A DNA stretch of 64,000 bases from a bacterium. Lineage in GTDB: Bacteria; Zhuqueibacterota; QNDG01; JAGLOF01. Location of the stretch: the NCBI GenBank assembly GCA_016934955.1, contig JAFGRY010000051.1:11211-75210 (forward strand), read 5' to 3'. Both the position numbers and the translations under genes were made by a program. The notes beneath the pieces were generated by a model, which was not told the DNA's origin, ran no database searches, and worked only from the letters and a program-made list of their open reading frames with translations. Positions 1,434-42,962 of this stretch are shown here, in pieces; the stretch's first letter is position 1, and every line of letters begins with the position of its first letter.

Positions 1434-2690
1434 TCACTCCGTTTTGTCCGCTCTGGAATCTATCACATTCCGATATTCATTCAGCAGCCACCGGTAATGA
1501 TCTTCGGGAGAAAAATGCTGCTCGGCAAATACCCGTGCCTGGGCTCCCATCTTTCCCACAGTGTCCGGATGCTCTGCAAGCCTGTCTATTGCAGCTGCGA
1601 GCCGCTCCGCATCGCCGGGAGGAAACAGCAGTCCGGTTCTTCCGTGGTCGACGAATTCCGGAATGCCACCAATCTCCGCCCCGATCACCGGCTTCCCCAT
1701 GCAGAACGGCTCGTAGATGACAAAAGGCGAATTTTCATACCATTCGGATGGAACAACCACGAAAGCCGCTCCGCCGAGAATGCGGCGCAGGTCTTCCCCG
1801 CTCTGATACCCGGTGAAGGAAACCCGGCCCAGACCGTGACCTTCGACATACTGCTGCAGCTGAGTCCGGACGGGGCCGTCTCCCACTATCACCAGCTTCA
1901 TCGCGGTTTTTGTCATCCGCACCGCCTCAAGCAGGGTCAGCAGCCCTTTTTCACCGGAAAGCCGTCCGTAATAGAGATAGTAATCACTTCCGCCGGGCCG
2001 GAAGGGATATTCATCCATATTGAGCGTTAAAAAATGGTGGACGACTTTGTCTTCCGGGATGCCTCCCTCAATCAGTTTTTTACCGATGAAAGCACTGGGC
2101 ACATGAAACCTGTCGACGATTCCGTATATATTCAGCATTCGATGAATTACGGCCTCGAGAGTGATCAGCAGACTCGCCGAGACCGAGTCCTTGTGGCAGC
2201 GCTGCAGAAAGGCGTTGTAATACGCGCCGTGCAGACACCGTTCACAAATTTCCTGTTTGTGTTCAATATACAACCGGTAATTGGGGCATACCAGCTTGTA
2301 CTGGTGCACGGTCTGAATCACCGGGATACCATGCTTTCTCAGCGTATGCAGTATCGAGGGTGAAATTTGATGATCGATCATGTGTATATGAGCGATATCC
2401 GGCTGTACCTCCTCAAGAAGCGATTCGAGCCGGTGTTTTGCGTGCAGGGAATAGATCACCCGGGCGGAGGCATGCATGGTCTTGAGCGGATGCCGGAGCG
2501 GATGCAGCTCGTCATAGTCGACATGATCGACAAAGAAGGACGCGTAGGCAGACTCGACGTTATCGGGATGCTGCATGGAAAAGGGGATCACCGTGTGGCC
2601 CTGATTTTCCAGAAGCTTTGTCAGTTCAAAGAGGTACCGCTCCACTCCGCCCTTGACAAAATAGAATTTATCTATCATCAGTATTCGCAT
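1434..2690 (-). CDS. Glycosyltransferase family 4 (GT-B, group 1)
   Basis: The N-terminus MRILMIDKFYFVKGGVERY is typical of GT4. The C-terminal half has the E-x7-E signature (ENSPFVIYE) followed by GKPVIGAEIGGIPEFV. Its start overlaps the upstream stop by 1 nt (TAATG). Confidence 0.85.
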   Translation of the reverse strand: MRILMIDKFYFVKGGVERYLFELTKLLENQGHTVIPFSMQHPDNVESAYASFFVDHVDYDELHPLRHPLKTMHASARVIYSLHAKHRLESLLEEVQPDIAHIHMIDHQISPSILHTLRKHGIPVIQTVHQYKLVCPNYRLYIEHKQEICERCLHGAYYNAFLQRCHKDSVSASLLITLEAVIHRMLNIYGIVDRFHVPSAFIGKKLIEGGIPEDKVVHHFLTLNMDEYPFRPGGSDYYLYYGRLSGEKGLLTLLEAVRMTKTAMKLVIVGDGPVRTQLQQYVEGHGLGRVSFTGYQSGEDLRRILGGAAFVVVPSEWYENSPFVIYEPFCMGKPVIGAEIGGIPEFVDHGRTGLLFPPGDAERLAAAIDRLAEHPDTVGKMGAQARVFAEQHFSPEDHYRWLLNEYRNVIDSRADKTE

Positions 2691-4432
2691 TACGGCCGTT
2701 CACCTTGTTGCTGGTATCCGGATACGTCGATATCGGTGAAGCGATAGATCACTGTTCTGAGGTTCGGAGCAGCGGTTTCATCATACACCAATTGCAGAAA
2801 GTCCGGTACGCCCTTTCCGAGGAACAGCTGCGCCATATTGGGATTATCCATGATATACCGCTCATTGAGGACCAAAAACTCCGTACCGCGATGACGGGCG
2901 TATGCGTGGATCCTGTCCAGAGAGTTCAGGGGAATATCGACGGCCATGGAGATATCGTAATTTCCGGCATAGTAATTCACGGTATGGTAGCGTGACATCA
3001 TTGCAGGGACGCCGCTGCACTGTTCCCGCAACCAGATTCCCGCCAGTTTCTGTTCCACCGGCGGCGCCCAGCGGTCCGTTGAGTATTTCGCTTTGGACGC
3101 ATATTTCCCGAACTCCGGAAGCCAGAGCCCGAGCAGCACCACCGCTGTTACCGTCAGCATGCTCCATCGCTCCGAAGAAAGACGCAGTGCACCGTCCCCT
3201 CCGGCTTCCGTGATGGTGCCCTTCACCCAGCTGTGAAGATAGACCAGGCCTTCACCCGCCCAGACGAAACAGATGGGGAGCAGGGACAGCAGATACCGTT
3301 CGGTTATGTGAAATGCGGGCACAAGAATAAACCAGAAGAAACCGATATAGAGAAAAAGATAGAGCTCCCGGCAGATCCTCTCCGATTTCCAGGCCTCTCC
3401 GAACAGCCCGAGCACCGTGAGAAGAAACAGTACGGACGATAGTGTCGACGGCACTGCGGTTTTCAGGACCCGGTACAGATTGGTGACATATTTTTTCAGT
3501 AAGGCCGGGACGGTGACGGCAACGGCCGGATTGCCGTCGGCGCTGTCGATATGGGTGTATTCACCCTCATGGAACAGGTGGTCAAGCGGTGTTGATGTAT
3601 TGTCCGGGGAAAGGTCACGAAAGACATCGATCTCATCTCTGGATCTGTTTTCACCATAGAGCTCACCCTGCTGAATCACGACTTTGCCGCTCGGGGTCCA
3701 GCGTCCGGTGGCCCCCCGTAAAAAGAGCAGATAGGGCAGGGACGTCATCGCGAACACCAGAACTGAAAACAGCATGATCAGCAGGAATCTGTTTCCGTTT
3801 TTTCGCCTGATCCTGGAGAGCCGGAAACCCCCTGCAGCGGCGGCGAAAACCAGGATCAGCCCGGCCCCTTCGGGACGGGTGATGTAGGCGAGCGCGAAAA
3901 GGAACCCGACGGCTCCGCTCCAGAGCCAGTGCAGGCGAGTAAGAACGGACCAGCCGAGCAGAATGCCCCCGATCGCGAGCAGCATGTAGAGGGGTTCAGT
4001 CAGCGCGCTTGTCTGCATAAACGCCAGGGACGGCAGCCAGAGGGACAGCATCAGAGTAAGGAGTGCCGTGCTCCTGCTGTAATGTCTGCGCGCAAACAGG
4101 TACAGCAATGCACCAAGGGAGAGTCCGCAAATAATTGAGATCATTCTGGCCGCTGTTTCAATATTGGGGACCACACGCGCAAGCAGACTGATGAGCAGAG
4201 GGTAAAGCGGTGTCCAGAACACGTGCAGGATACCGGACAGTCCCTGAGTGAGACCGGTTGCCGCCAGCTGAAGATAGTGCACTTCATCGAAGGCGGCCGC
4301 GTACTGTTTGGTAATCATAAACAGTCTCAGCAGCAGGCCACCGGTGAAAACAAGAACAAGCTGCACCGGTTCCTGAGAGAGAACACGGCCCGGACTGCTG
4401 AATGGTCTCCTGTTTTCCCACTTCATATTCAC
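2690..4432 (-). CDS. GT-C fold membrane glycosyltransferase, ArnT/PMT-like (GT39/GT83-type)
   Basis: 580 aa with more than 10 predicted TM spans. An acidic DE motif sits in the first loop (AAAFDEVHYLQLA), as in ArnT/PMT_2 family enzymes. There is a roughly 150-aa C-terminal soluble domain. Confidence 0.7.
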   Translation of the reverse strand: MNMKWENRRPFSSPGRVLSQEPVQLVLVFTGGLLLRLFMITKQYAAAFDEVHYLQLAATGLTQGLSGILHVFWTPLYPLLISLLARVVPNIETAARMISIICGLSLGALLYLFARRHYSRSTALLTLMLSLWLPSLAFMQTSALTEPLYMLLAIGGILLGWSVLTRLHWLWSGAVGFLFALAYITRPEGAGLILVFAAAAGGFRLSRIRRKNGNRFLLIMLFSVLVFAMTSLPYLLFLRGATGRWTPSGKVVIQQGELYGENRSRDEIDVFRDLSPDNTSTPLDHLFHEGEYTHIDSADGNPAVAVTVPALLKKYVTNLYRVLKTAVPSTLSSVLFLLTVLGLFGEAWKSERICRELYLFLYIGFFWFILVPAFHITERYLLSLLPICFVWAGEGLVYLHSWVKGTITEAGGDGALRLSSERWSMLTVTAVVLLGLWLPEFGKYASKAKYSTDRWAPPVEQKLAGIWLREQCSGVPAMMSRYHTVNYYAGNYDISMAVDIPLNSLDRIHAYARHRGTEFLVLNERYIMDNPNMAQLFLGKGVPDFLQLVYDETAAPNLRTVIYRFTDIDVSGYQQQGERP

Positions 4433-5322
4433 TCCCCTGCGAGTTGTTTCATGTGGGTGAGACTCTCTGCAAGCGGTTCGAACCGGTATCCGCAGATATC
4501 GGCCAGTTTATCGCAGACCAGCCCGGAACGCTTCGGCCGCACGGCCCGCTGGTGAAACCGCTCGCTGGTTGTCTCGATGATCAGCTCGCCGTTCAGATCG
4601 AATACACCGGCGATCATCATTGCAAATGCATACCGGTTCATCAGTTCAGGCCCCGCCGCATGAAAAAGTCCCTCCGCATGGGCGTCCGCAAGTGTCAGCA
4701 GTGCTCCTGCCAGCTGGTCCGCATAGGTCGGGGTACCGTACTGATCATTGACAATCCGCACCTGCCTGCCCTCACGGAGCATACCGACCAGCCAGGTGAC
4801 AAAATTCGCATTGCCCGAGGGTGTGTATCCGAACAGGATCATCGTCCGGACAATCGTCGCAGTCGGCAAGACGCGTGTGACGGCAATTTCCCCTTCATAT
4901 TTACTGCGACCGTACACCGACAGCGGATTCGGTTCATCCACTTCGGTATAGGGGCCGTTTTCCCCGTCGAACACATAATCCGTTGAGACGTGTATCAGCC
5001 CGGCCCCCGTTTCCAGGGCCGCGATCGCCGCGTGTTCGGCTCCTGCGGTGTTGACCGCCCGGGCGCGTTCCGGATACTCCTCACACCGGTCGACATCGGT
5101 CATCGCGGCGGCATTCACAATGCAGTCTATCCCTCGGCCCCTGAGCGCACCGATGAGCCCATCCCGGTCACTGATATCCACCTGAAGATACTCCAGATCC
5201 CCGGGCATCCAGGCAGGTTTTCCATGAAGATCAGCGGCGAGGAGCTCATATGTCCCCTTCGCTGCAGCGAGAATCCTGCCTCCGAGCAGCCCTCCGGCTC
5301 CGATGACGCATAGTCTCTTCAC
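4429..5322 (-). CDS. rmlD: dTDP-4-dehydrorhamnose reductase-like SDR (RmlD family)
   Basis: It has a Rossmann motif (VIGAGGLLGGR) and the RmlD-type block HVSTDYVFDGENGPYTEVDEPNPLSVYGRSKYEGE. I placed the start at the GTG at 5322, 2 nt after the upstream stop. The ORF-track start at 5385 would overlap the upstream gene by 60 nt. Confidence 0.75.
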   Translation of the reverse strand: MKRLCVIGAGGLLGGRILAAAKGTYELLAADLHGKPAWMPGDLEYLQVDISDRDGLIGALRGRGIDCIVNAAAMTDVDRCEEYPERARAVNTAGAEHAAIAALETGAGLIHVSTDYVFDGENGPYTEVDEPNPLSVYGRSKYEGEIAVTRVLPTATIVRTMILFGYTPSGNANFVTWLVGMLREGRQVRIVNDQYGTPTYADQLAGALLTLADAHAEGLFHAAGPELMNRYAFAMMIAGVFDLNGELIIETTSERFHQRAVRPKRSGLVCDKLADICGYRFEPLAESLTHMKQLAGE

Positions 5323-5324
5323 GT

Positions 5325-6446
5325 TCAATGTCCTCTCGCCATGCGCCTGAACAGTGCCTCGTAATCCCGGGCAACCCGGTCCCAAGAATATTCACGGTGA
5401 GCCCGTTCCCTGGCTTTTTCTCGATACCGGGCCACCTGTTCCGGATGATCGAGCAGGCGCTGCATCTGTTCGGCGAGCATGGATATATTCCGGTGTCCGT
5501 AATAGCAGCCGGCATCGCCCAGGGCTTCTCTGTGTTCAGGCACATCATGGGCGATAATGCAGTTGCCGAATCCCATCCCCTCGAGCAGCGCGGGATGGGT
5601 TCCCCCTACTTCCGTCGCCTGGACATAGAGATAGGCATGCGACTGCAGCTCCCGGTACCCGTCGCCGAAAACATACCCGGTAAACAGTATCCGGCTGTCA
5701 CCGGTGCGTTTCAGCTGCTGAATATAGCGGCTGTTATACGGTGCATCACCGACCACAACCAGTTTCTTTTTCGTCTTCACCCGTTCAAAGGCGCTGACGA
5801 CATGATGAGCATTGTTTTCCGGTTCGAGACGGCTGACGTAAAGCAGATAATTGTCAGGCGCGAGCCCGAACCGTTTCAGCGTTTCTCCCGCCGCTGTTTT
5901 TTCCGTAGGGGCCCCATAGGGGATGAAGGTCGAACGCTTGCCGAATCTATTGCGATAGTACCGTTCGATAAAACGGGAATCGGTCACTACCTGGTCCGGA
6001 ATGAAGGTCGCCAGACATTCGGAAAACCGATAGACCCATTGTCCTATCTTGTTCCATTTCGCCCGCTGCCATTCGAGACCGTCGACATTGACGGCGACCC
6101 GCTGTCCCGCCAGCCTCGGCACCAGGGAGAAAATACTGTTGACACTGTTACAGATCAGCACCGCGTCATAGGGCTCACGCAGCCCCCTGAAAACGCTGAG
6201 AAACGTATGTGCCACCGTATCGAAATACTTGTGATTGAGCGTGGGCAGTATCACCAGACGAACACCCTTGTAGGTGTCGCCGCTGTACTCAATAGTGTTC
6301 GACCTTCCATACACGGTGACATCGTGGCCCATGGCGACGAGTCTCACGCTCAACTCTTCTGCAAAGGTTTCGAATCCGCCGTAGTTTGCGGGTATTCCCC
6401 GGGTTCCCATTATCGCAATGCGCATGTTCCGGTCCAATCTGCTCAT
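5325..6446 (-). CDS. Glycosyltransferase family 4 with DUF1972-type N-terminus (RgpA-like, possible rhamnosyltransferase)
   Basis: MRIAIMGTRGIPANYGGFETFAEELSVRL is the characteristic DUF1972 N-terminus, and a GT1 C-terminal domain follows. It lies next to the RmlD-like gene. An alternative ATG is at 6425. Confidence 0.75.
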   Translation of the reverse strand: MSRLDRNMRIAIMGTRGIPANYGGFETFAEELSVRLVAMGHDVTVYGRSNTIEYSGDTYKGVRLVILPTLNHKYFDTVAHTFLSVFRGLREPYDAVLICNSVNSIFSLVPRLAGQRVAVNVDGLEWQRAKWNKIGQWVYRFSECLATFIPDQVVTDSRFIERYYRNRFGKRSTFIPYGAPTEKTAAGETLKRFGLAPDNYLLYVSRLEPENNAHHVVSAFERVKTKKKLVVVGDAPYNSRYIQQLKRTGDSRILFTGYVFGDGYRELQSHAYLYVQATEVGGTHPALLEGMGFGNCIIAHDVPEHREALGDAGCYYGHRNISMLAEQMQRLLDHPEQVARYREKARERAHREYSWDRVARDYEALFRRMARGH

Positions 6447-6448
6447 AT

Positions 6449-9579: not shown

Positions 9580-9679
9580 AATTATTTCCTCCTAACCATA
9601 CTTCCGCGAGACCGTCCCCGAATCGTCACTGCCTGAGAAGCAGATCGGGATACACGCGGGCGCCTCGGGGCATGATCCG

Positions 9680-11197
9680 TCATTCCCTGAGCTCGATAAA
9701 TCCATCTGCAACGGCATGTGTACCTCTAAACCGTTCCGCTGCCGCCGAGGTAGCATAGACAGGGTTCCCGTCGCCGAATACCATTTCGATCTCAGCGGCG
9801 GAAAGATAGTATTTGTCGTTGATCCAGCCGCCGTCAACCCGGTACACCGCTCCACCCGGCTCGATGCCGTAGTGGATCATCTCCGGAAACCGGCGAATTA
9901 AAACAAAATAATCGATATGTTCAAACAAACCGGCCTCTTCGGTAAAGAGCATGGCCCTGCTCTGGCTATAGCTGATACTGTTCTCATTAAGTATCCTCAG
10001 GTACCGCTTGTATTCGGGCGGCCGGTACAGCCACCGGGCACACTGAGCGTAGAGAGCCCCGCTCCAGAAGACCAGGACGGCAATCAGCAGATAAGAGGCC
10101 CATCTGAATACAGGCATGCTTTCCGGTTTTCCCCGAGCCCCCCATATGCCGATGGATGCAGTCACCACCGCGAAAAACACCGGCATATCGACCCGCTCGA
10201 TGATGAACGAGGCCAGCGCGATCGGCACCGCTCCGGCAATGAGCAGCATCACGATCGGCACCGGACTGCTCTTCCAGCGACGAACAGCCCCGATGATTCC
10301 CCAGAGGAGAAATCCGTAAAAAAGGATATTGGTTCCCGCCACCGCGGCAATGAATGCGAACCGGATCGGGGGTGAGTTAATTTTTCCGATATCAAGGGGG
10401 ATGTTGTTCACTTCACGGAACGGCAGGATCCAGTCTTTCTGAACCCGCTCGAGTACGGCATCGGTTTCATGGGAAAAGGCGGACAGATGGCTCTCGATGC
10501 CGTAACTGCCGGTATACGCCTCTTTGAAAAGCCGGAATCCTTCGGGAATCAGGGCCAAAACACCGCCCACTATGACACCGATCAATAGGTAGACAACGGC
10601 TGTATGGATAATCCGTAATCGCAGCTTTCCCCTGCCGAACAGCAGAAGCAGGGGCAGCACGATATAGACGATGGCCACGGTATGAAAAAGCAAAGCGACC
10701 GAAAAGCCCGCCGCAGCCAACAGCAGCCGGGGCACGGTAACTCCCCGATGAAACGCACTGTCAACGGCCGCCGCCATGACCGCTATGCCCGCAAGCAGCG
10801 GCAGATTGTCTTCCAGACGCAGGTTCAGCAGATGGTATCCCGGAATGACCATGAGAAGGATGAACCCCCAAAAAGCGCTGGTGGCATCGAGATGGTTTCT
10901 GAGAATACGAAACCCGGCCAGGAGAAAAATCACCGTACTCAATGCTGAAAGAAAAGCGACCGGTGCGACCAGGTCGGCAGTACATGCGCCGGCGATCAGC
11001 AGGTATGCGCCGTACACCATGTGGACGTTCCAGATCACGGGATTATCCCAGGTAACCGATCCCCGTCCGAAGCTGATGAGGCTGGACGCGGTGTCCGGAT
11101 CGACGGTTGTGTGCGAGAGATTCAGCGACACCAGGAGAAAAAGGAAAAGCAGGGCCGCAAGACCCCCAACGGTGACACTCACTGTTCGTTCAGTCAT
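9680..11197 (-). CDS. Polytopic membrane protein with C-terminal soluble domain (candidate third GT-C-like transferase)
   Basis: About 12 hydrophobic spans followed by a roughly 110-aa hydrophilic tail. I recognised no named family. The start is placed at the ATG at 11197, which overlaps the upstream stop by 8 nt (ATGACTGA); the ORF-track start is 11284. Confidence 0.45.
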   Translation of the reverse strand: MTERTVSVTVGGLAALLFLFLLVSLNLSHTTVDPDTASSLISFGRGSVTWDNPVIWNVHMVYGAYLLIAGACTADLVAPVAFLSALSTVIFLLAGFRILRNHLDATSAFWGFILLMVIPGYHLLNLRLEDNLPLLAGIAVMAAAVDSAFHRGVTVPRLLLAAAGFSVALLFHTVAIVYIVLPLLLLFGRGKLRLRIIHTAVVYLLIGVIVGGVLALIPEGFRLFKEAYTGSYGIESHLSAFSHETDAVLERVQKDWILPFREVNNIPLDIGKINSPPIRFAFIAAVAGTNILFYGFLLWGIIGAVRRWKSSPVPIVMLLIAGAVPIALASFIIERVDMPVFFAVVTASIGIWGARGKPESMPVFRWASYLLIAVLVFWSGALYAQCARWLYRPPEYKRYLRILNENSISYSQSRAMLFTEEAGLFEHIDYFVLIRRFPEMIHYGIEPGGAVYRVDGGWINDKYYLSAAEIEMVFGDGNPVYATSAAAERFRGTHAVADGFIELRE

Positions 11198-12155
11198 GAT
11201 CGATCCTCCCCTGCCTGTTACCGCTCTGTTTTTTCTCGGTGGACAAACCGGCCTTATACGGTCCCCGGATAAATCCCCAGACATGAGCGACGAATCCCAG
11301 AAGAATGAGCGGATACATCGCCGCCGTTTTCAGGAGCAGTGTCCGGTCTGAAAACAGAAAACAGCGAAACGTCATCACTGTTCTGTAAATCGGCACCAGC
11401 GGCAGCAGAAACGGATAATCGATCAGGAAGGAGCCGTAAATATTCGTCCGCCGCCGCACTTCCACCTCTCCCTCTCCGAGATATACCTGATTTCTCACGT
11501 ACGCCTTGAACGATGTACGATTCATATGCGTGATTTTTGCATCGGGATTAAAAAAAATAGCAAACCCCTTTGACCGGGCATATTCACAAAACATCGTATC
11601 TTCGGCCTTCATGAAATCAGGAAAATATCCAACCGTATCGAACACTTCCCGGGCAACAGACAGGTTGCAGGAGGCGACTCCCTTCACCGTTCCGGCCTTG
11701 ACTCCCGGATTGAGCTCCCGGAACTCGGTGATATATTCCGCGGTGCCGAAGAGGCTGTCCGGTGTGCCGTTCACGACACTTCCCCCCACGATTTTGTACC
11801 CCCTTCGATGTTCTTCGAGATGCTGTTCCAGCCAATAGGGGTCCAGCACGCAGTCCACATCGGTGAAACAGACAATATCGCCCTTCACGGCAGCTGCTCC
11901 CGCGGAACGTGCCTTGCCGGGGTAGGTCCGCTGCTGCAAATGCACAACCGTGACCTCGGGAAACCGGGCCTGAATCATTTCAGCGGGACTTGCCGGAGAG
12001 CTGTCAACGACCGTGACGTCGAACGGATAATCGGTTTTCTGATTCAGGACGGATTCCAGGCAGGTGAGTATATCACTGCCGGGCTTGTAGGAAGGGATCA
12101 CAACGGAAATGTTTTTCTTTGCAATGTCAATTGTTTCCATACCAGCCCGTTTCAT
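11190..12155 (-). CDS. Glycosyltransferase family 2
   Basis: It has the GT2 N-terminal signature ISVVIPSYKPGSDILTCLESVLNQ and the DxD-like motif FTDVDC. It overlaps the upstream gene by 4 nt. Confidence 0.85.
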   Translation of the reverse strand: MKRAGMETIDIAKKNISVVIPSYKPGSDILTCLESVLNQKTDYPFDVTVVDSSPASPAEMIQARFPEVTVVHLQQRTYPGKARSAGAAAVKGDIVCFTDVDCVLDPYWLEQHLEEHRRGYKIVGGSVVNGTPDSLFGTAEYITEFRELNPGVKAGTVKGVASCNLSVAREVFDTVGYFPDFMKAEDTMFCEYARSKGFAIFFNPDAKITHMNRTSFKAYVRNQVYLGEGEVEVRRRTNIYGSFLIDYPFLLPLVPIYRTVMTFRCFLFSDRTLLLKTAAMYPLILLGFVAHVWGFIRGPYKAGLSTEKKQSGNRQGRIDHD

Positions 12156-13273
12156 TTATTTTCAAGATCAATTTGTTTAAGCATATCTCTAGAACTGCTC
12201 ATCACATCCCACTTGCTGCGGACATAGAACGGAGCCGCGGCCATAATCACATGCGTGATCCACACATTCTTCATCACGGCAAAAAAGGGCGGATAGAGCA
12301 GCAGTACCAGGGGAAGCGCCCACCAGAGGGACTGTGCAATCAGCACCCCGTAGAGCACCGTGCCCGCGAGCACACAGTAGGGAACGGCCATAAACTGCAG
12401 AAGCGCCGGCAGAAAGATGCGCCAGTCGTACCGTCCATTGACGAGCAGGGGCAGGTGCCTGCTGTACACCTGCAGAACACCTTTGCAGCGTCGGATCTTC
12501 TGTTTGAATCGTTCAGACAATGTCGTGGGTGTGCATTCGTAGGCTACCGCCCGGTCATCGTAGACGAACCTGAATCCTTTGGCGATGATATGAAACAGCA
12601 GCTCCGTGTCATCGGCCAGCGAATTGAGGTGAACATCCCTGACAAGATCTGTTCTAAAGGCGACAATCGGTCCGTTGCAGATTGAGATTGAATGCAGCCT
12701 CGACTCCCCCTTACGCCAGATGCTGTAAAATCTCCGGTAAATCTGTTCATCGGTCTCCATCTGTCCCTTTTCGTTGATCGAGAGTATCCTCACTTCTCCG
12801 TTTGCCCCGCCGACACGCGGATCGGCGAAATTGCCGACAAGCTCACGGACCGCATCCCTTTCCAGCAGGCTGTCGGCATCGGTCTCAACAATGAGCTCGG
12901 TATCGATTCGGGAGAACGCGAAATTCAATGCGTTCGGTTTGCTTCGTTCGTATTCGTTGTCCAGCACTTCCGCCCTGAAGGGCAGCGATCCGATTGTCCG
13001 CTCGAGGATGGTCCTGGTGGCATCGGTGGAATGGTCATTGATAAAAAGCACCCGAAGCCGCTCCGGCGGATAATCTGTCCGGGCGATATTCTCGACTTTC
13101 TTGGCAATGACTTCCGCTTCGTTGTAGGCGCAGACCAGCAGGGTCACATCCGGAAGATCAGCCCCCCGGGTATGTGTAACCGCTTTTCGGGAGAGAAGAA
13201 ACGTGAAAAGCGTGAACCCGAGGGTAACCGCCGCAGTGATCGAAAAACAGAGTATGAACAGTAATGCTATCAT
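12152..13273 (-). CDS. Membrane-embedded GT2, synthase-like (NodC/PgaC/cellulose-synthase-type architecture)
   Basis: An N-terminal TM span is followed by a GT2 core (LLVCAYNEAEVI, INDHSTD, TDADS). A Q-x-x-R-W-like motif (QKIRRCKG) and several C-terminal TM spans follow. Confidence 0.7.
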   Translation of the reverse strand: MIALLFILCFSITAAVTLGFTLFTFLLSRKAVTHTRGADLPDVTLLVCAYNEAEVIAKKVENIARTDYPPERLRVLFINDHSTDATRTILERTIGSLPFRAEVLDNEYERSKPNALNFAFSRIDTELIVETDADSLLERDAVRELVGNFADPRVGGANGEVRILSINEKGQMETDEQIYRRFYSIWRKGESRLHSISICNGPIVAFRTDLVRDVHLNSLADDTELLFHIIAKGFRFVYDDRAVAYECTPTTLSERFKQKIRRCKGVLQVYSRHLPLLVNGRYDWRIFLPALLQFMAVPYCVLAGTVLYGVLIAQSLWWALPLVLLLYPPFFAVMKNVWITHVIMAAAPFYVRSKWDVMSSSRDMLKQIDLENK

Positions 13274-13283
13274 GACAACAGAT

Positions 13284-14213
13284 TCATCGGTTATGTTCGT
13301 CCTTTATCAGCTGACGTAACCGCTGCATTTCTTTCCGGACCATCCGCCAGCTCCTGTAGGAAGAATCGAGCAGCAGTCCCATAAGGAAAAGAAGTACCGA
13401 AAGGAGAATACAGATCGCGGTTATGATTGCCAGGCCGGTATGCTGCATGAGACCGGTCTGCAGATAGCGGATGATCAGTGATATACCGGTGCCGCTTCCG
13501 GTGATGAAGAAGATCAGAGACAGAATAACGAAAAAGTTCATCGGATTATAGTCTCTGAACAGCGTGATGATGGTGTAAAAAATGAGAAATCCGTCACTCC
13601 AGGTGCTCAGCTTGGACTCGGATCCGCTTATTCTGCTGCGGTAGTTGATGGGCATTTCCAGGATACGGTAACGCTCCTCCAGAGACCGTATGGTCAATTC
13701 CACCTCGATTTCAAATCCTTCGGAGAGCAGCACAAGATTATCCACCAGTTCCCTGCTGAGGATCCGGTACCCGGAGAGGATATCCTTCAGCTGTACTTTA
13801 AACGTCTTGTTCAGCAGGTGAGTCAGCAGGAAATTGCCGATCCGGTGGGTGAATGAAAATGCCGTCGAGTGTACCTGTTGCCGCAGGCCGACCACCATAT
13901 CGGCCCTGTGCTCGGCCACCGGCTTGATGAGGTCCCTGATATTCTCGGCGCTGTATGTCAAATCGGCATCGACCATAATGTATATATCGGCATCGATCTC
14001 TTCCAGCATGTGCCGAACTGCATACCCCTTGCCCTGAAGACGGCAGGAGACAACCGTCGCTCCCGCCTCTTTCGCCTTTTCGGCTGTCGCGTCGACACTG
14101 TTATTGTCCCCAACATATATATCCGCCTCGGGGAGTGCTGATTTGAATTCAGTCACGACCTGAGCGACGGACACTTCCTCATTATATGCCGGTATGATTA
14201 CCGCAATCTGCAC
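13284..14213 (-). CDS. Polyprenyl-phosphate sugar synthase-type GT2 (GtrB/ArnC/DPM1-like), paralog 3
   Basis: It has a GT2 core (VIIPAYNEE, VGDNNSVD, DxD = VDADL) and a C-terminal two-TM hairpin, which is the GtrB-type layout. Confidence 0.7.
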   Translation of the reverse strand: MQIAVIIPAYNEEVSVAQVVTEFKSALPEADIYVGDNNSVDATAEKAKEAGATVVSCRLQGKGYAVRHMLEEIDADIYIMVDADLTYSAENIRDLIKPVAEHRADMVVGLRQQVHSTAFSFTHRIGNFLLTHLLNKTFKVQLKDILSGYRILSRELVDNLVLLSEGFEIEVELTIRSLEERYRILEMPINYRSRISGSESKLSTWSDGFLIFYTIITLFRDYNPMNFFVILSLIFFITGSGTGISLIIRYLQTGLMQHTGLAIITAICILLSVLLFLMGLLLDSSYRSWRMVRKEMQRLRQLIKDEHNR

Positions 14214-14231
14214 GCTTACCTCCCGAGGCAG

Positions 14232-15188
14232 TTAATTGATGATCTCTTCGATGTTGTACTCCTCGATCTCACCGGCATGAGTGAATATCACCATCTCACC
14301 CAGAAGACCGATGGATATCATCTGAATACCGATAACCAGAAGCAGGGCGCCGAGGATGAGCAGCGGTCTGCCGGCGATAGGGCCGATCAGCAGAATGCGG
14401 TACACAAACAGGTACAGCTCTATTGCCAGCCCCACCAGAAACAGAAACGTGCCGAGAAATCCCAGGAAATGGATCGGCTTTTTCGAATACCGGGAAAGGA
14501 AAAAAACGGTGATGATATCGAGTATGCGCTGTACATATTCTTTCGGATACTTCGATTTTCTGAACATCCCGTGTAATTGCTCTACCTTGACTTCCCTTAC
14601 TTTGTACCCCTGCTGAGCGGCCAGCACAGGAAGGAAATTGTACAGATCTCCATAAAAGGAGACCTTTGAAAGCACGCTCTTTCTGGTCACGAAAATGCCG
14701 CTGTTAATATCATGCAGCCGGATTCGGGATAAGCGGCAGGCCATGGAATTGAACATCCGGGAGATGATACGGTTGAGCAAACTGTCCCGCCGGGGATACC
14801 GCCAGCCAACGATGAAGTCTCCGCCGCTGTCGAGAGCATTGAACAGAACCGGCAGTCCCTCAGGAGCCACCCGCACACGGCCGCTGATAAAGGCCACCTC
14901 TTCTCCCAGGGAATATTTCAAACCCGCTTCCAGAGCAGCGGCTTCACCGAACGTAGACCGCATCCTGATTACTCGAATGCGGCTGTCCGTGCTCTTTTCC
15001 TTGAGCGTCTCGAATGTCCGGTCGGTGCTGCCGTCGTCGATAAAAAGCACTTCGAAACTGCGGCCTGTCCCGGACATGGCCGTCACCACAGTATCGGCAA
15101 GCTCCGACACGCCTTCGTCGATGTTATATGCGGCAACGATAACCGATGCCTGCGGCCTTTTTTCTCTGGGAGATCTGCTCTTGTCCAT
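14232..15188 (-). CDS. GtrB/ArnC/DPM1-like GT2 paralog 2, with degenerate DxD motif
   Basis: It aligns by eye over its full length with the 15190-16155 product, including the FIDDGSTDRT block and the C-terminal TM hairpin. The AMDGDLQND block of its neighbour is FISGRVRVA here. Confidence 0.7.
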   Translation of the reverse strand: MDKSRSPREKRPQASVIVAAYNIDEGVSELADTVVTAMSGTGRSFEVLFIDDGSTDRTFETLKEKSTDSRIRVIRMRSTFGEAAALEAGLKYSLGEEVAFISGRVRVAPEGLPVLFNALDSGGDFIVGWRYPRRDSLLNRIISRMFNSMACRLSRIRLHDINSGIFVTRKSVLSKVSFYGDLYNFLPVLAAQQGYKVREVKVEQLHGMFRKSKYPKEYVQRILDIITVFFLSRYSKKPIHFLGFLGTFLFLVGLAIELYLFVYRILLIGPIAGRPLLILGALLLVIGIQMISIGLLGEMVIFTHAGEIEEYNIEEIIN

Positions 15189-15189
15189 A

Positions 15190-16155
15190 TCAATCCTCAG
15201 TACGGTTATACTCTATCGGAGAAACGGTGATACCCCGCCGGTCACCCGTTAGCACGATCAGACTGGCGACCAGTCCCATTAACAGAAACTGAAATCCGGC
15301 CGCAAGCAGCAGAAAGACAATGGTTGCCGGAACATTGAGATCAACGAGATTGGCGTGCCGGGTAACCATCCGGCAGACCAGCCAGCAGCAGGCGATCATA
15401 CCCGAACCGATGAACCATGCCCCGAGCATGCCGAAAAAACGCAGCGGATTCCTCAGATGCTTGAGTAACAGGGTCAGGCTTATCAGATCCATGATCACCC
15501 TGAATGTTCTCGTTATCGTGTATTTTGACTCCCCGTAGACCCGGGGCCGGTGATTCACCACAACCTCCGTGATCCGGGCGCCTTCAATCCTCGCCAGTAC
15601 CGGAATGAACCGGTGCAGTTCTCCGTAGACGCGAATATGTTTAATGACCTCCCGGCGGAAGGCCTTCAGGGAACAGCCGGTGTCATGAAGCCGCACCCCC
15701 GTCAGGGAACAGATCAGCCGGTTCGCGATACGTGACGGCACTTTCCGTATCAGGAGCTTGTCCTGCCTGTTTTTCCGCCATCCGGCCACGACATCATACC
15801 CCTCTTCAATCTTGCTCAGAAGCAGCGGGATGTCCTCCGGATCATTCTGCAGGTCGCCGTCCATGGCAATGACAATATCTCCGGCGCTCGCCTTGAAGCC
15901 GGCGGCCATTGCCGCTGACTGGCCCCGGTTGCTTCTGAAAAGAATGATCTTGAAGTGCGGATCCCTGCCGGCCTGTTCCTTGAGAATATCCCGCGTCCCG
16001 TCGCTGCTGCCGTCATCGACGAAGATGATCTCATAGGATTGACCCGTTCTTTCAAGCACGTCCTTTATGGATCGATAGAGAATCAGGACATTCTCATGCT
16101 CATTGTACACAGGAACGGTGACGGAAATCCGTATATGGTCGCCGGTGCGGTTCAT
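15190..16155 (-). CDS. Polyprenyl-phosphate sugar synthase-type GT2 (GtrB/ArnC-like), paralog 1
   Basis: Motifs VTVPVYNEHENV, FVDDGSSDGT, AMDGDLQNDPEDIP, GWRKNRQD and GESKYTITRTFRV are followed by a C-terminal two-TM hairpin. This is the classic GtrB/ArnC pattern. Confidence 0.8.
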   Translation of the reverse strand: MNRTGDHIRISVTVPVYNEHENVLILYRSIKDVLERTGQSYEIIFVDDGSSDGTRDILKEQAGRDPHFKIILFRSNRGQSAAMAAGFKASAGDIVIAMDGDLQNDPEDIPLLLSKIEEGYDVVAGWRKNRQDKLLIRKVPSRIANRLICSLTGVRLHDTGCSLKAFRREVIKHIRVYGELHRFIPVLARIEGARITEVVVNHRPRVYGESKYTITRTFRVIMDLISLTLLLKHLRNPLRFFGMLGAWFIGSGMIACCWLVCRMVTRHANLVDLNVPATIVFLLLAAGFQFLLMGLVASLIVLTGDRRGITVSPIEYNRTED

Positions 16156-16158
16156 ACC

Positions 16159-16317
16159 TTAAAAGAGGGTATAAATGAACGGTGCGACAACGCTGCTGCT
16201 GGTAAGAACGATGATCACGCCAAGCAGCACAAGAACGATAATTATCGGTGTCAGCCACCATTTCCTGTTCTCTTTCAGAAATGAAAACAGCTGAATAAGT
16301 ATTTTCCCTTTTGCCAT
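16159..16317 (-). CDS. Small membrane protein, DUF5989 / SxtK-like (52 aa, absent from the ORF track)
   Basis: My translation is MAKGKILIQLFSFLKENRKWWLTPIIIVLVLLGVIIVLTSSSVVAPFIYTLF. It has one TM span and the KWWL...APFIYTLF ends typical of the tiny proteins found beside carbamoyltransferases. It lies 3 nt upstream of the next start. Confidence 0.65.
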   Translation of the reverse strand: MAKGKILIQLFSFLKENRKWWLTPIIIVLVLLGVIIVLTSSSVVAPFIYTLF

Positions 16318-16335
16318 GTGACAGCGCTGCCTCCC

Positions 16336-16773
16336 TTAATACATCTTTTTATAGCGTTCGATCGACCAGGCACTTTCATCCTTCATCACCCAGTGGCTTT
16401 CAGCCTCGGGATCGAGATGTCCCTCGATAGGATTTTTCCCGAACAGCTTCATGACCAGGCCGATCGGCGTTACGATACCGTAGAAAATCACCGCCAGCAG
16501 CACCCGTGAGACGAGCCAGCCCACGGTAAACGCGATACCCATCCAGAACCGGTATACATAGGTGAGCGACCGCGGATAGACCGCTCCCAGCGCCATGAGC
16601 ATGGCGCCGACGCCAAACAGCACGAACCGCCATTCCGAAACGACATGCCTGTATTCCATGTACAGGCCGATCAGCAGAAAAATTCCGCCCACGAACAGCC
16701 CGAATTTCCTCAGGTTTTTCCCGGAAAGATTCAGGTCCTGTATTTCATCTCTGACATCACTAATCCAGCTCAT
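16336..16773 (-). CDS. SxtJ-family small membrane protein
   Basis: 145 aa counted from the ATG at 16773 (MSWISDVRDEIQDL...), with three to four TM spans. It overlaps the carbamoyltransferase stop by 14 nt. The ORF-track start at 16923 would lie inside the carbamoyltransferase gene. Confidence 0.6.
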   Translation of the reverse strand: MSWISDVRDEIQDLNLSGKNLRKFGLFVGGIFLLIGLYMEYRHVVSEWRFVLFGVGAMLMALGAVYPRSLTYVYRFWMGIAFTVGWLVSRVLLAVIFYGIVTPIGLVMKLFGKNPIEGHLDPEAESHWVMKDESAWSIERYKKMY

Positions 16774-23697: not shown

Positions 23698-23720
23698 TAA
23701 TCTATCCTCGTAGAGTCTTT

Positions 23721-41991: not shown

Positions 41992-41994
41992 GTA

Positions 41995-42954: not shown

Positions 42955-42962
42955 ATCCCTCC

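What the first reader, a model, noticed from the sequence alone, without database searches (positions are those of the whole stretch)
2690..16155. Three tandem polyprenyl-phosphate sugar synthase paralogs, matched by three to four GT-C (ArnT/PMT-like) membrane transferases
Seen in sequence: three consecutive GT2 genes (15190-16155, 14232-15188, 13284-14213) each combine a GtrB/ArnC/DPM1-type catalytic core with a C-terminal two-TM hairpin. The same co-directional block holds two clear ArnT/PMT-like GT-C proteins (2690-4432 and 7852-9579, both with the first-loop DE motif). A third polytopic protein with a C-terminal soluble domain lies at 9680-11197, and a fourth candidate at 26775-28187. Established knowledge: GtrB/ArnC/DPM1 enzymes make polyprenyl-phosphate monosaccharides on the cytoplasmic face, and GT-C enzymes consume them on the periplasmic face (lipid A Ara4N, O-antigen glucosylation, protein O-mannosylation, arabinan synthesis). 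Inference: roughly 1:1 numbers of donor synthases and GT-C transferases suggest several parallel periplasmic glycosylation branches. These could decorate the Wzx/Wzy-built polymer, or a protein acceptor such as the T9SS cargo encoded 5 kb upstream. This density in one operon is unusual.
Basis: partly seen in the sequence, partly recalled or inferred. Interest (0 to 1): 0.7.

Follow-up and report, generated by a model that had tools for sequence, protein, structure and literature searches.

The report
Conserved lipid-sugar synthase trio with GT-C transferases
An uncultured sediment or spring bacterium carries a surface-polysaccharide gene cluster that appears to add side-chain sugars outside the cell through lipid-linked donors; this is a known strategy, but one of its three "donor synthases" belongs to a widely conserved variant that has lost the catalytic metal-binding motif and always sits next to an intact partner.

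Summary
Genes 15190-16155, 14232-15188 and 13284-14213 are GT2 proteins of the polyprenyl-phosphate glycosyltransferase type (ArnC/GtrB/DPMS/AglJ), each with a C-terminal two-helix hairpin. Genes 2690-4432 and 7852-9579 pass Pfam PMT_2 and carry a first-loop D-E motif. Gene 9680-11197 is a probable divergent GT-C. Gene 26775-28187 models as a GT-C, and its relatives sit in classical GtrA/UbiA/DprE-type loci.

The trio is not a local oddity. It is the core of a module (AsnB-like, YdjM, GT2, GT2, GT2, then GT2s, PMT_2, MOP flippase, DUF1972 GT4, RmlD, PMT_2) found in at least 357 species-level genomes; the 80 best-matching are mostly labelled KSB1 or Calditrichota.

The middle gene is not a canonical synthase. 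In all 87 orthologues examined here, the D-x-D-x-Q motif is replaced: the second Asp is always Arg and the first is usually Ser, Thr or Ala. Yet it is about as conserved as its intact upstream neighbour, which is adjacent in 85 of 85 loci.

So the 1:1 synthase-to-GT-C count is doubtful. Two-plus-two arrangements are already known in Streptococcus mutans. No evidence supports glycosylation of the T9SS cargo protein.

Verdict: a new variant of a known system, of moderate interest.

The parts
15190..16155 (-). PPS1: an ArnC-like polyprenyl-phosphate glycosyltransferase that looks catalytically complete (MDGDLQN motif, C-terminal two-helix hairpin).
   Evidence: All 11 ArnC substrate or metal residues listed in PMC12690121 are invariant in the orthologue alignment A8.
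14232..15188 (-). PPS2: a paralogue of PPS1 with the same fold and hairpin. D-x-D-x-Q is replaced by S-G-R-V-R, and PxYNE by AAYNI. It starts 1 nt after the PPS1 stop codon.
13284..14213 (-). PPS3: an AglJ/DPM1-like polyprenyl-phosphate hexosyltransferase with a VDADLT motif and a two-helix hairpin.
12152..13273 (-). A membrane-anchored GT2 of the PgaC/NodC-like Glyco_tranf_2_3 type, with one N-terminal hydrophobic segment and a C-terminal hydrophobic stretch (three overlapping 19-residue windows). It is not of the polyprenyl-phosphate synthase type.
11190..12155 (-). A GT2 ('g2b') that is conserved in the module next to the PMT_2 gene.
9680..11197 (-). A probable divergent GT-C from a very rare family. 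VDPDT is invariant in the first loop, and there is a C-terminal soluble domain.
   Evidence: PMT_2 scores 22.5 bits, below the cut-off, but 6 of 9 family members hit PMT_2. hhalign against the 2690 family gives 65.7% probability and E = 5.7e-5 in register. Only 5 clusters were found among 1.84 billion representatives. The AF2 model failed, with pLDDT 46.
7852..9579 (-). GT-C 'C_b', of the PMT_2/ArnT type, with WVDE in the first loop. It is the most frequent GT-C of the module.
6449..7891 (-). The second MOP (Wzx/MurJ/MatE) flippase, conserved beside C_b. It is a candidate flippase for the polyprenyl-phosphate sugar or for a second lipid-linked intermediate.
   Evidence: A MATE-family flippase in a three-component system is a published precedent (PMC11127046).
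5325..6446 (-). A GT4 with a DUF1972 domain, resembling the Cps2T/GacB-type rhamnosyltransferases.
   Evidence: NF046071 scores 176 bits over the full length.
4429..5385 (-). RmlD, dTDP-4-dehydrorhamnose reductase.
   Evidence: TIGR01214 scores 235.6 bits, above the cut-off of 224.
2690..4432 (-). GT-C 'C_a', of the PMT_2 type, with FDEVHY in the first loop.
1434..2690 (-). A GT4 glycosyltransferase.
6..1430 (-). A Wzy_C (O-antigen polymerase/ligase family) membrane protein.
18574..19149 (-). A YdjM-family membrane protein, conserved directly upstream of PPS1 in relatives.
   Evidence: present in 56 of 69 loci.
19163..20980 (-). An AsnB-like amidotransferase with a weak GATase domain, conserved upstream of YdjM and PPS1.
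   Evidence: 40 of 48 loci. An AsnB-like gene also lies within 3 kb of 15 of 80 more distant PPS1-like genes.
16159..18577 (-). An insert specific to this window: a NodU-like carbamoyltransferase (16760-18577), SxtJ (16336-16773) and DUF5989 (16159-16317).
   Evidence: It is absent from this position in the three relatives inspected gene by gene; no carbamoyltransferase or SxtJ match appears in any of the related loci listed.
26775..28187 (-). A GT-C-like membrane protein from a family unknown to Pfam. P62, D65, D66, E91 and H92 are invariant.
   Evidence: The AF2 model has pLDDT 86.4. Five of the six top Foldseek PDB hits have probability 1.0: STT3A, ArnT 5ezm, PglB (twice) and AftA; their TM-scores are 0.42-0.45. 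Homologues lie beside GtrA, UbiA and DprE1/E2-like genes.
25693..26778 (-). A polysaccharide deacetylase (PgaB-like N-terminal domain).
   Evidence: A related gene lies upstream of the trio in 19 of 48 loci.
21046..23739 (-). An FG-GAP repeat protein with a T9SS type A sorting domain.
30688..32127 (-). The first Wzx-type flippase of the cluster.
40546..46122 (-). The start of the cluster: Wza (45295-46122), Wzc (42963-45272), an epimerase or dehydratase (41995-42966) and an EPS-type polyprenyl glycosylphosphotransferase (40546-41991).

Best explanation
Setting. The region is the distal half of a roughly 46 kb, single-strand, Wzx/Wzy-type surface-polysaccharide cluster. The host is an uncultured bacterium (NCBI locus-tag prefix JXO52) whose closest relatives for this module are mostly labelled candidate division KSB1 (Zhuqueibacterota) or Calditrichota.

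Proposed pathway.
1. A rhamnose-containing repeat unit is built on undecaprenyl pyrophosphate. The enzymes are the EPS-type phosphoglycosyltransferase, soluble GT2 and GT4 enzymes including a DUF1972 rhamnosyltransferase, and RmlD.
2. The repeat unit is flipped across the membrane and polymerised.
3. In parallel, PPS1 (ArnC-like) and PPS3 (AglJ/DPM1-like) charge polyprenyl phosphate with single sugars on the cytoplasmic face.
4. A flippase moves these lipid-linked sugars outward. The second MOP protein at 6449-7891 is the candidate, because no GtrA or SMR gene is present.
5. Three to four GT-C enzymes transfer the sugars onto the polymer as side chains.

Role of PPS2. PPS2 is not a conventional third synthase. 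It arose from a PPS1-like gene and keeps the fold, the hairpin, the DDGS nucleotide-binding residues and two of the three Und-P-binding arginines. It has replaced the proposed catalytic base and both metal ligands, with an invariant Arg at the second Asp position. It is always encoded immediately after PPS1. It most likely works together with PPS1, for example within the tetramer that this enzyme family forms, as a non-catalytic or altered-chemistry subunit.

Basis. Shown: the family assignments, motifs, synteny and conservation. Inferred: the sugars, the acceptor, the identity of the flippase and any PPS1-PPS2 complex.
For: - Cluster composition is established.
- All three GT2 proteins match polyprenyl-phosphate GT models and structures over their full length, hairpin included.
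- PMT_2 scores above the gathering cut-off for 2690-4432 and 7852-9579. The acidic first-loop residues are invariant.
- For 26775-28187, the AF2 model (pLDDT 86) finds GT-C structures as five of its six best PDB matches. Its homologues sit in GtrA/UbiA/DprE-like loci.
- 9680-11197 gives a weak but in-register PMT_2 signal.
- The module is conserved. 357 loci were found among GTDB species representatives. PPS1 is adjacent to PPS2 in 85 of 85 loci. A third hairpin-bearing GT2 follows in 67 loci. A PMT_2 gene lies within 10 kb in 32 of 46 loci, the MOP flippase in 29 and the DUF1972 GT4 in 31.
- Arg replaces the second Asp of the motif in all 87 PPS2 orthologues from related loci, and the S/T-G/S-R-V-R pattern recurs in the 120 best database homologues. 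PPS1 keeps DGD(L/M)Q in 80 of 81 sequences.
- Mean pairwise identity among orthologues is 56.7% for PPS1 and 54.4% for PPS2, so PPS2 is under similar constraint.
- In ArnC, D100 is the proposed base, D102 and Q104 hold Mn2+, and the enzyme is a tetramer bridged by its C-terminus (PMC12690121).
- Published precedents exist for several synthase and GT-C pairs in a rhamnan cluster (PMC11754754) and for a MATE/MOP flippase in such a system (PMC11127046).
Against: - No biochemical data exist for any of these proteins.
- The GT-C fold of 2690-4432 and 7852-9579 rests on Pfam only. Profiles of both families find nothing significant in the PDB by sequence (ArnT at E = 0.12 is the only hit).
- The model of 9680-11197 failed.
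- Fourteen of 46 related loci show no PMT_2 gene within 10 kb, so the PPS1-PPS2 pair may have a GT-C-independent role.
- PPS1-like genes at 44-50% identity mostly stand alone without a PPS2 (39 of 47 loci with room downstream). A partner is therefore not intrinsically required by this enzyme type.
- Two Arg residues in place of the metal ligands could equally mean that PPS2 is an active, metal-independent enzyme.
Confidence: 0.6

Rival explanations
1. All three GT2 proteins are active, independent donor synthases for three different sugars. Each feeds its own GT-C. PPS2 uses Arg104 and Arg106 in place of a divalent metal to neutralise the nucleotide diphosphate.
For: - PPS2 is under strong purifying selection.
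- It keeps DDGS, the R130/R133 equivalents of ArnC R128/R131, D160 and the S-K-Y motif.
- Basic residues replacing the metal are known in some metal-independent GT-A enzymes (from my own knowledge; not tested here).
- The window holds 3 to 4 GT-C-like genes.
Against: - The proposed catalytic base (first Asp) is Ser, Thr or Ala in most PPS2 orthologues.
- The equivalents of ArnC N77, R137 and R205 are also changed.
- PPS2 is never found without PPS1 immediately upstream.
- GT-C number varies between 0 and 2 within 10 kb while the pair stays constant.
Confidence: 0.2
2. The GT-C enzymes glycosylate proteins rather than the polysaccharide, in the manner of PMT-like O-glycosylation. The targets would be T9SS cargo such as the FG-GAP protein, or other envelope proteins.
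For: - The Pfam family that is hit is PMT_2.
- Large secreted proteins with FlgD_ig domains or a T9SS sorting domain lie just upstream of the module in several relatives.
- A GtrB plus GT-C system for protein O-glycosylation is known in streptococci (PMC11092751, listed but not read).
Against: - The FG-GAP protein has no Ser/Thr-rich disordered stretch; the maximum is 9 Ser or Thr in any 30 residues.
- A homologous cargo gene is found upstream in only 9 of 48 loci.
- The GT-C genes are interleaved with RmlD, a rhamnosyltransferase, a flippase and a Wzy_C protein.
- PMT_2 is a broad family that includes ArnT-like lipid and glycan transferases.
Confidence: 0.12
3. The GT2 hairpin enzymes initiate an oligosaccharide on polyprenyl monophosphate, as AglJ does in haloarchaea. 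The neighbouring soluble GT2 and GT4 enzymes extend it. The second MOP protein flips it. A GT-C then transfers it en bloc.
For: - PPS3 matches AglJ best, at 242 bits over the full length.
- 7852-9579 gives weak hits to Agl23 and to archaeal STT3.
- A second flippase and several soluble GTs lie between the synthases and the GT-Cs.
Against: - All scores are below the equivalog cut-offs.
- A conventional phosphoglycosyltransferase and a first Wzx already serve the cluster.
- DUF1972 enzymes of the GacB/Cps2T type act on pyrophosphate-linked acceptors (from my own knowledge).
- I know of no bacterial precedent.
Confidence: 0.08
4. This is an Arn-like lipid A or LPS-core modification pathway. PPS1 acts as ArnC, the polysaccharide deacetylase as ArnD, and a PMT_2 protein as ArnT.
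For: - The best structural-sequence match of PPS1 is ArnC, at 193 bits against 110 bits for GtrB.
- A polysaccharide deacetylase recurs upstream in 19 of 48 loci.
- The only PDB hit of the C_b profile is ArnT, at E = 0.12.
Against: - PPS1 scores 208 bits against a cut-off of 529 for the ArnC equivalog.
- No ArnA-type or ArnB-type gene is present in the cluster. The only formyltransferase domain in the window is a PurN-like 213-residue protein beside PurH.
- The deacetylase matches PgaB, not ArnD.
- The surrounding genes are those of a Wzx/Wzy polysaccharide cluster.
Confidence: 0.05

Closest known systems
Streptococcal rhamnopolysaccharide clusters: S. mutans SCC (sccABCDEFGHMNPQ) and S. pyogenes GAC (gacA-L)
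   Same: - RmlD lies next to a DUF1972 GT4 rhamnosyltransferase, with further GT2 enzymes.
- One cluster holds more than one hairpin-bearing GT-A Und-P-sugar synthase together with GT-C side-chain transferases. SccN works with SccM and SccP with SccQ (PMC11754754).
- One synthase can serve more than one transferase.
   Different: - Here export is of the Wzx/Wzy and Wza/Wzc type, not by an ABC transporter.
- The host is a diderm of the FCB group, not a Gram-positive coccus.
- There are three synthase-like genes, one without DXD, and three to four GT-C-like genes.
- An AsnB-like gene and a YdjM gene are fixed upstream.
- No GroP transferase was seen.
Three-component periplasmic glycosylation systems (GtrA/GtrB/Gtr* of Shigella and Salmonella; the Citrobacter pentofuranose system)
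   Same: A polyprenyl-phosphate sugar synthase, a flippase and a GT-C modify a Wzx/Wzy-built polymer after export (PMC11127046). A MATE/MOP-family flippase can replace GtrA.
   Different: - No GtrA or SMR gene is present.
- The synthases come as a conserved trio.
- The system is embedded in the main cluster rather than carried on a prophage or accessory cassette.
ArnC (Und-P Ara4FN transferase) and GtrB tetramers
   Same: PPS1 aligns over its full length and keeps every listed substrate and metal residue. PPS2 keeps the fold, the hairpin, DDGS, and the R128 and R131 equivalents.
   Different: - PPS1 is far below the ArnC equivalog cut-off, and the other Arn genes are absent.
- PPS2 has S, R and R at D100, D102 and Q104.
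- Known family members are homotetramers. A fixed pair of an intact and a DXD-less paralogue has not been described in the papers I could search.
Non-catalytic partners of lipid-sugar synthases and pseudo-glycosyltransferase partners (GacJ with GacI; DPM2/DPM3 with DPM1; Cosmc with T-synthase; GtfB with GtfA). These are recalled from my own knowledge, not tested here.
   Same: An active transferase depends on, or is stimulated by, a co-encoded non-catalytic protein.
   Different: GacJ, DPM2 and DPM3 are small membrane proteins, not full-length paralogues. No interaction has been shown here.
Haloarchaeal AglJ and the Agl pathway
   Same: PPS3 gives a full-length match to the AglJ model at 242 bits.
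   Different: The score is below the cut-off of 325, the organism is a bacterium, and no AglB/STT3-type oligosaccharyltransferase was identified.

Membership tests
Polyprenyl-phosphate glycosyltransferases (GtrB/ArnC/DPMS type, GT2) | A GT-A GT2 catalytic domain | tested here: met
   PF00535 scores 124.7, 68.7 and 73.3 bits against a cut-off of 23.3 for PPS1, PPS2 and PPS3.
Polyprenyl-phosphate glycosyltransferases (GtrB/ArnC/DPMS type, GT2) | A C-terminal pair of transmembrane helices after the juxtamembrane helices | tested here: met
   Hydropathy shows two helices at about residues 230-297 in all three proteins. The alignments to ArnC and GtrB run through the hairpin.
Polyprenyl-phosphate glycosyltransferases (GtrB/ArnC/DPMS type, GT2) | The D-x-D-L-Q metal and base motif, described as conserved throughout the family (PMC12690121) | tested here: not met
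   PPS1 (DGDLQ) and PPS3 (DADLT) meet it. PPS2 (SGRVR) does not, and neither does any of its 87 orthologues in related loci or the 120 best database homologues.
Polyprenyl-phosphate glycosyltransferases (GtrB/ArnC/DPMS type, GT2) | The arginines that bind the polyprenyl phosphate (ArnC R128, R131 and R137) | tested here: inconclusive
   PPS1 has all three invariant. PPS2 keeps R130 and R133, but has N139 at the R137 position with R140 beside it.
Polyprenyl-phosphate glycosyltransferases (GtrB/ArnC/DPMS type, GT2) | Transfer of a sugar from a nucleotide sugar to polyprenyl phosphate; a tetrameric assembly | not testable with these tools
   This needs enzyme assays and either multimer prediction or cryo-EM.
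GT-C glycosyltransferases (PMT_2/ArnT-like, GT-C_A) | A polytopic membrane domain with an acidic motif in the first extracytoplasmic loop | tested here: met
   There are 8 to 10 hydrophobic segments. The motifs are D49 (2690-4432), D44 and E45 (7852-9579), D33 and D35 (9680-11197), and D65 and D66 (26775-28187). All are invariant in their families.
GT-C glycosyltransferases (PMT_2/ArnT-like, GT-C_A) | A sequence-profile match above the curated threshold | tested here: inconclusive
   Met by 2690-4432 (37.0 bits) and 7852-9579 (33.8 bits) against the cut-off of 26.1. 9680-11197 scores 22.5 bits, below the cut-off, although 6 of 9 relatives hit PMT_2. 26775-28187 has no hit, and nor do its 16 relatives.
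GT-C glycosyltransferases (PMT_2/ArnT-like, GT-C_A) | The GT-C fold shown by structure comparison | tested here: inconclusive
   - 26775-28187: the model has pLDDT 86. Five of the six top PDB hits (STT3A, ArnT, PglB twice, AftA) have probability 1.0, but TM-scores are only 0.42-0.45 and E is about 0.02.
- 9680-11197: the model is unusable.
GT-C glycosyltransferases (PMT_2/ArnT-like, GT-C_A) | Use of a polyprenyl-phosphate-linked donor | not testable with these tools
   Only context is available: co-location with the synthases here, and with GtrA, UbiA and DprE-like genes for relatives of 26775-28187.
Three-component (GtrA/GtrB/Gtr*) glycosylation system | A dedicated small flippase of the GtrA or SMR type | tested here: not met
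   No GtrA_DPMS_TM or SMR hit was found among the cluster genes, and no unassigned intergenic ORF is left. A MOP protein is the substitute candidate.
Arn (lipid A aminoarabinose) pathway | ArnA, ArnB, ArnC, ArnD, ArnT and ArnE/F equivalogs | tested here: not met
   PPS1 scores 208 bits against the cut-off of 529. The deacetylase matches PgaB, not ArnD. There is no aminotransferase or ArnA-type fusion in the window.
Streptococcal-type rhamnan cluster | RmlD with a DUF1972 rhamnosyltransferase and an ABC-transporter export route | tested here: inconclusive
   RmlD passes its cut-off (235.6 against 224). The DUF1972 GT4 scores 176 bits against 500 for Cps2T. There is no ABC transporter; Wzx and Wzy are present instead.

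The most novel reading that the evidence does not exclude
PPS2 defines an undescribed, widely conserved clade of polyprenyl-phosphate-glycosyltransferase-like proteins, present in at least 357 species-level genomes. In this clade an invariant Arg replaces the second, metal-binding Asp of the D-x-D-x-Q site, and the other two motif positions are also replaced. The protein would act as an obligate, co-translated partner of an intact ArnC-like synthase. It could be a pseudo-glycosyltransferase subunit of a hetero-tetramer that regulates, scaffolds or hands on the lipid-linked sugar. Alternatively it could be the first metal-independent member of the family.
Probability: 0.35. Interest if true: 0.7.

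Novelty: new variant of a known kind. Interest (0 to 1): 0.5.

Why it matters
- **Surface glycans of uncultured phyla.** Nothing is known experimentally about the surface glycans of KSB1/Zhuqueibacterota, Calditrichota and their relatives. This module is a conserved, lineage-marking part of their envelope biosynthesis.
- **The enzyme family.** The DXD motif is currently described as universal in polyprenyl-phosphate glycosyltransferases, a family that includes the polymyxin-resistance enzyme ArnC. A conserved DXD-less paralogue locked to an intact one would be a natural experiment. It bears on how these tetrameric enzymes bind nucleotide and lipid phosphate, and on whether pseudo-enzyme subunits exist in this family.
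- **Genome annotation.** Counting GT2-hairpin genes overestimates the number of lipid-linked donors, so synthase-to-GT-C ratios should not be read as pathway counts.

Tried and rejected
- **Single-sequence PDB searches.** Searches with 2690-4432 and 7852-9579 found nothing relevant.
- **Profile PDB searches.** The C_b, C_a and 9680 families gave only ArnT at E = 0.12, or nothing.
- **AF2 model of 9680-11197.** It was built from 5 sequences and failed, with pLDDT 45.7. I therefore ran no fold search on it.
- **Exhaustive profile search for more relatives of 9680-11197.** It returned only 5 clusters, so a deeper alignment was not possible.
- **Promoter and terminator scan of 1-20000.** All matches lay inside coding regions and none in an intergenic gap. 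The sigma-70 consensus may not apply to this lineage.
- **Recent tandem duplication.** Rejected, because pairwise identity is only 22-35%.
- **PPS2 as a decaying pseudogene.** Rejected. The reading frame is intact, there are more than 1000 homologues, and constraint is nearly equal to that on PPS1.
- **Arn pathway membership.** Considered and rejected, as set out in the membership table.
- **Literature searches.** Searches for a DXD-less polyprenyl-phosphate GT paralogue and for KSB1 or Calditrichota glycan clusters found nothing relevant.
- **Synthase-to-GT-C co-occurrence test.** No fixed pairing emerged. C_b and the MOP flippase accompany the 'NTDGDNQY'-type third GT2 in 21 and 22 of 32 loci respectively, and the AglJ-type third GT2 in 0 of 6. 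The window itself combines the AglJ type with C_b. The 10 kb flanks limit this test.

Full report
**Anatomy of the window.** Every substantial gene from about 46.1 kb down to base 6 lies on the minus strand, with very short or overlapping junctions. Pfam and NCBIfam give the following order:
- Wza (45295-46122) and Wzc (42963-45272).
- An SDR epimerase or dehydratase.
- An EPS-type polyprenyl glycosylphosphotransferase (40546-41991; TIGR03025 at 419 bits, cut-off 296).
- A GT4, a full AsnB, a methyltransferase, an FAD oxidoreductase, an SDR enzyme and a hexapeptide-GT2 fusion.
- The first Wzx (30688-32127).
- An MBOAT, a 335-residue protein with one TM helix, and a 470-residue polytopic protein (26775-28187).
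- A polysaccharide deacetylase and two GT2 genes.
- An FG-GAP protein with a T9SS type A sorting domain (21046-23739; TIGR04183 at 36.9 bits, cut-off 23).
- An AsnB-like protein with a weak GATase domain (19163-20980) and YdjM (18574-19149).
- A NodU-like carbamoyltransferase, SxtJ and DUF5989 (16159-18577).
- The three GT2 genes of the finding.
- Two more GT2 genes, two polytopic proteins, a second MOP flippase (6449-7891), a DUF1972 GT4 (5325-6446) and RmlD (4429-5385; passes TIGR01214).
- A third polytopic protein (2690-4432), a GT4 and a Wzy_C protein (6-1430).

The part of the window above 46.2 kb lies outside the cluster. It holds a STAS-domain protein and a glycogen/starch synthase (46225-48414), a TPR protein, Lgt, and purine, tRNA-modification and secretion genes such as PurH, PurN, MiaB, FtsY and PurF.

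**The three GT2 genes.**
- PPS1 (15190-16155) aligns end to end with the ArnC model (208 bits) and with solved ArnC structures (E = 6.5e-56). It also matches GtrB (1e-30) and P. furiosus DPMS (5e-22).
- PPS2 (14232-15188) does the same more weakly: ArnC at 5e-30 and GtrB at 1e-19.
- PPS3 (13284-14213) aligns end to end with the AglJ model (242 bits) and matches DPMS.
- Each has two hydrophobic helices near residues 230-297.

The three proteins share only 35, 26 and 22% identity, so this is not a recent tandem duplication.

**PPS2 is a non-canonical member.** The residue-level alignment to ArnC and GtrB places PPS2 I-S-G-R-V-R-V opposite ArnC L-D-A-D-L-Q-N and GtrB I-D-A-D-L-Q-D.
- The ArnC structure paper (PMC12690121) assigns D100 as the likely catalytic base and D102 and Q104 as the Mn2+ ligands. 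[quoted passage not shown] All three residues are replaced in PPS2.
- Of the 11 substrate and metal residues listed there, PPS1 orthologues keep all 11 invariant.
- PPS2 keeps the equivalents of D48, R128, R131, S210 and K211. It changes N77, D100, D102, Q104, R137 and R205.
- This is not decay. The search returned more than 1000 homologues. The best 120 are 58-87% identical, and nearly all tabulated motif variants read S/T-G/S-R-V-R.
- In 87 orthologues from related loci the motif is mostly [S/T/A]-x-R-V-R. The Arg at the second Asp position is invariant.

**Synteny.** A profile scan of one genome per GTDB species found 357 loci. The 80 best are mostly labelled candidate division KSB1, Zhuqueibacterota or Calditrichota, or are unclassified MAGs from sediments and springs. 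The window's own proteins carry NCBI locus tags with the prefix JXO52 from an unclassified 'bacterium'. I called ORFs in these loci and assigned them to window proteins with phmmer, with these results:
- A PPS1 orthologue lies directly upstream of PPS2 in 85 of 85 loci that have room for it. The junction is often overlapping or only a few bases long.
- PPS1 keeps (M/L)DGD(L/M)QN in 80 of 81 sequences.
- A third GT2 of about 320 residues with a C-terminal hairpin follows in 67 loci. Nine are orthologues of the window's AglJ-like PPS3. The other 58 belong to a different 'NTDGDNQY' subfamily.
- YdjM lies upstream in 56 of 69 loci, and the AsnB-like gene in 40 of 48.
- Within 10 kb downstream, in 46 non-redundant loci, a PMT_2 GT-C occurs in 32, the MOP flippase in 29 and the DUF1972 GT4 in 31.
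- Mean pairwise identity among orthologues is 56.7% for PPS1 and 54.4% for PPS2. The DXD-less protein is therefore constrained almost as tightly as the intact one.
- In the reciprocal scan of metagenomes with a PPS1 profile, the close PPS1 relatives (57-60% identity) again had PPS2 next to them. Most relatives at 44-50% identity stood alone (39 of 47 with room), and an AsnB-like gene lay within 3 kb of 15 of the 80 loci. A few had a weaker PPS2-like neighbour, three of which showed an R-(V/I)-R motif.

Together these results suggest that PPS2 arose from a PPS1-type gene and became fixed as its neighbour in this lineage.

**The GT-C candidates.**
- 2690-4432 and 7852-9579 pass the Pfam PMT_2 threshold (37.0 and 33.8 bits, cut-off 26.1). 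Their orthologue families align with each other at 98.3% hhalign probability over about 400 columns. The first-loop acidic residues are invariant. Sequence profiles of both families reach no solved structure significantly; ArnT at E = 0.12 is the only hit.
- 9680-11197 belongs to a very rare family, with 5 clusters among 1.84 billion representatives. Six of 9 members hit PMT_2, with a best E-value of 1.6e-6. The family profile aligns to the 2690 family at 65.7% probability and E = 5.7e-5 over 201 columns. That alignment places its invariant VDPDT on the FDEVHY motif. The AF2 model was unusable. I rate it a probable, unproven GT-C.
- 26775-28187 has no Pfam or NCBIfam match, and neither do its 16 relatives. 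Its model is confident (pLDDT 86.4, pTM 0.86), and five of its six best PDB matches are GT-C enzymes. STT3A, ArnT, PglB and AftA appear at probability 1.0, but TM-scores are only 0.42-0.45 and E is about 0.02. Its relatives lie in textbook lipid-donor contexts. One is GtrA, UbiA, [homologue], LPG_synthase_TM, FAD_binding_4, adh_short and HAD in Parachitinimonas. Another has GtrA nearby with several GT2 genes. A third sits directly after a GT2. The first of these resembles the pentofuranose three-component systems described in PMC11127046.

**Mechanism.** The best-supported reading is a Wzx/Wzy-dependent, rhamnose-containing polysaccharide. It is further carbamoylated, acylated, amidated or deacetylated, judging from the accessory genes. 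Its side chains are added outside the cytoplasm from polyprenyl-phosphate sugars made by PPS1 and PPS3.
- No GtrA or SMR flippase is present. The second MOP protein, conserved beside the commonest GT-C, is the obvious candidate, and a MATE-family flippase in such a system has been proposed before (PMC11127046).
- The closest characterised analogue is the streptococcal rhamnan system. [quoted passage not shown] SccN also serves a further, unidentified transferase (PMC11754754). That the neighbouring GT4 in such clusters is of the DUF1972 type rests on my own knowledge.

Multiple parallel branches in one cluster are therefore established, and a 1:1 count is not required.

**What remains unusual.** The fixed PPS1-PPS2 pair is the unusual feature. 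ArnC and GtrB are tetramers in which the hairpins form an eight-helix bundle and the C-terminus bridges neighbouring protomers. A paralogue that keeps those parts, the nucleotide-binding DDGS and two lipid-phosphate arginines, but loses the base and the metal ligands, is a plausible non-catalytic or altered subunit. The alternative is an Arg-assisted, metal-independent enzyme, and I cannot exclude it. Both are inferences, and no tool here could test association or activity.

**Protein acceptor.** The FG-GAP T9SS cargo protein lacks Ser/Thr-rich linkers. Homologous cargo genes are upstream in only 9 of 48 loci. Other relatives carry different secreted proteins there, with Flg_new_2 or DUF1565 domains. 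This fits secreted polysaccharide-processing or surface proteins co-located with an envelope glycan cluster. It does not show that they are glycosylated.

**Verdict.** The system is a new variant of multi-component transmembrane glycosylation. Its one new element is the conserved DXD-less synthase paralogue.

Noticed in passing
window 56164-59210 (minus strand): Three consecutive genes encode a CDP-alcohol phosphatidyltransferase, a geranylgeranyl reductase (GGR_cat) and a UbiA prenyltransferase. This combination recalls the archaeal-type ether-lipid genes reported in FCB-group bacteria (from my own knowledge).
   Followed up: no
window 16159-18577 (minus strand): A NodU-like carbamoyltransferase, SxtJ and a 52-residue DUF5989 protein (81 bits) are inserted between YdjM and PPS1. 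The three relatives inspected gene by gene have no such insert, and no related locus listed has a match to either gene. This suggests O-carbamoylation of the glycan in this organism.
   Followed up: partly
L098, L099, L108-L110, L125, L128, L133, L140, L141, L150, L151, L157, L164 (metagenome loci): In 15 of 80 loci, PPS1-like GT2 genes at 44-50% identity that lack a PPS2 neighbour still have an AsnB-like amidotransferase within 3 kb. The ArnC-like plus AsnB-like pairing is therefore broader than the KSB1/Calditrichota module. No known pathway that I could name explains it.
   Followed up: partly
window 9680-11197 (minus strand): This membrane protein family is extremely rare, with only 5 representative clusters among 1.84 billion proteins. 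None was seen in the 80 related loci. It is a very narrow accessory gene.
   Followed up: yes
window 28184-30653 (minus strand): An MBOAT is followed, with overlapping stop and start codons, by a 335-residue protein with one TM helix and no family match. The best hit is DUF1574 at E = 0.08. This is probably an O-acylation pair of the AlgI/AlgJ or DltB/DltD kind. The next gene is the GT-C-like 26775-28187.
   Followed up: partly
L002 11995-13410; L004 11954-13894: The slot after the third GT2 is variable in relatives. One has a B12-binding radical SAM enzyme. Another has a GFO_IDH_MocA oxidoreductase plus an unknown protein. This hints at lineage-specific sugar tailoring.
   Followed up: no
window 19163-20980 and 37444-39330 (minus strand): The cluster has two asparagine-synthase-family genes. 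The upstream one has a full GATase domain (166 bits). The one beside YdjM has only a weak GATase signal (39 bits) and is closest to the XrtA/PEP-CTERM amidotransferase model.
   Followed up: no
window 32140-33948 (minus strand): A 602-residue fusion of a hexapeptide-repeat (acyltransferase-like) N-terminal part with a GT2 domain.
   Followed up: no
window 52605-53891 and 62460-63095 (minus strand): A GWxTD-domain protein and a DUF5683 protein lie among the housekeeping genes. I believe both families are typical of FCB-group bacteria, which would fit the taxonomic placement (from my own knowledge).
   Followed up: no
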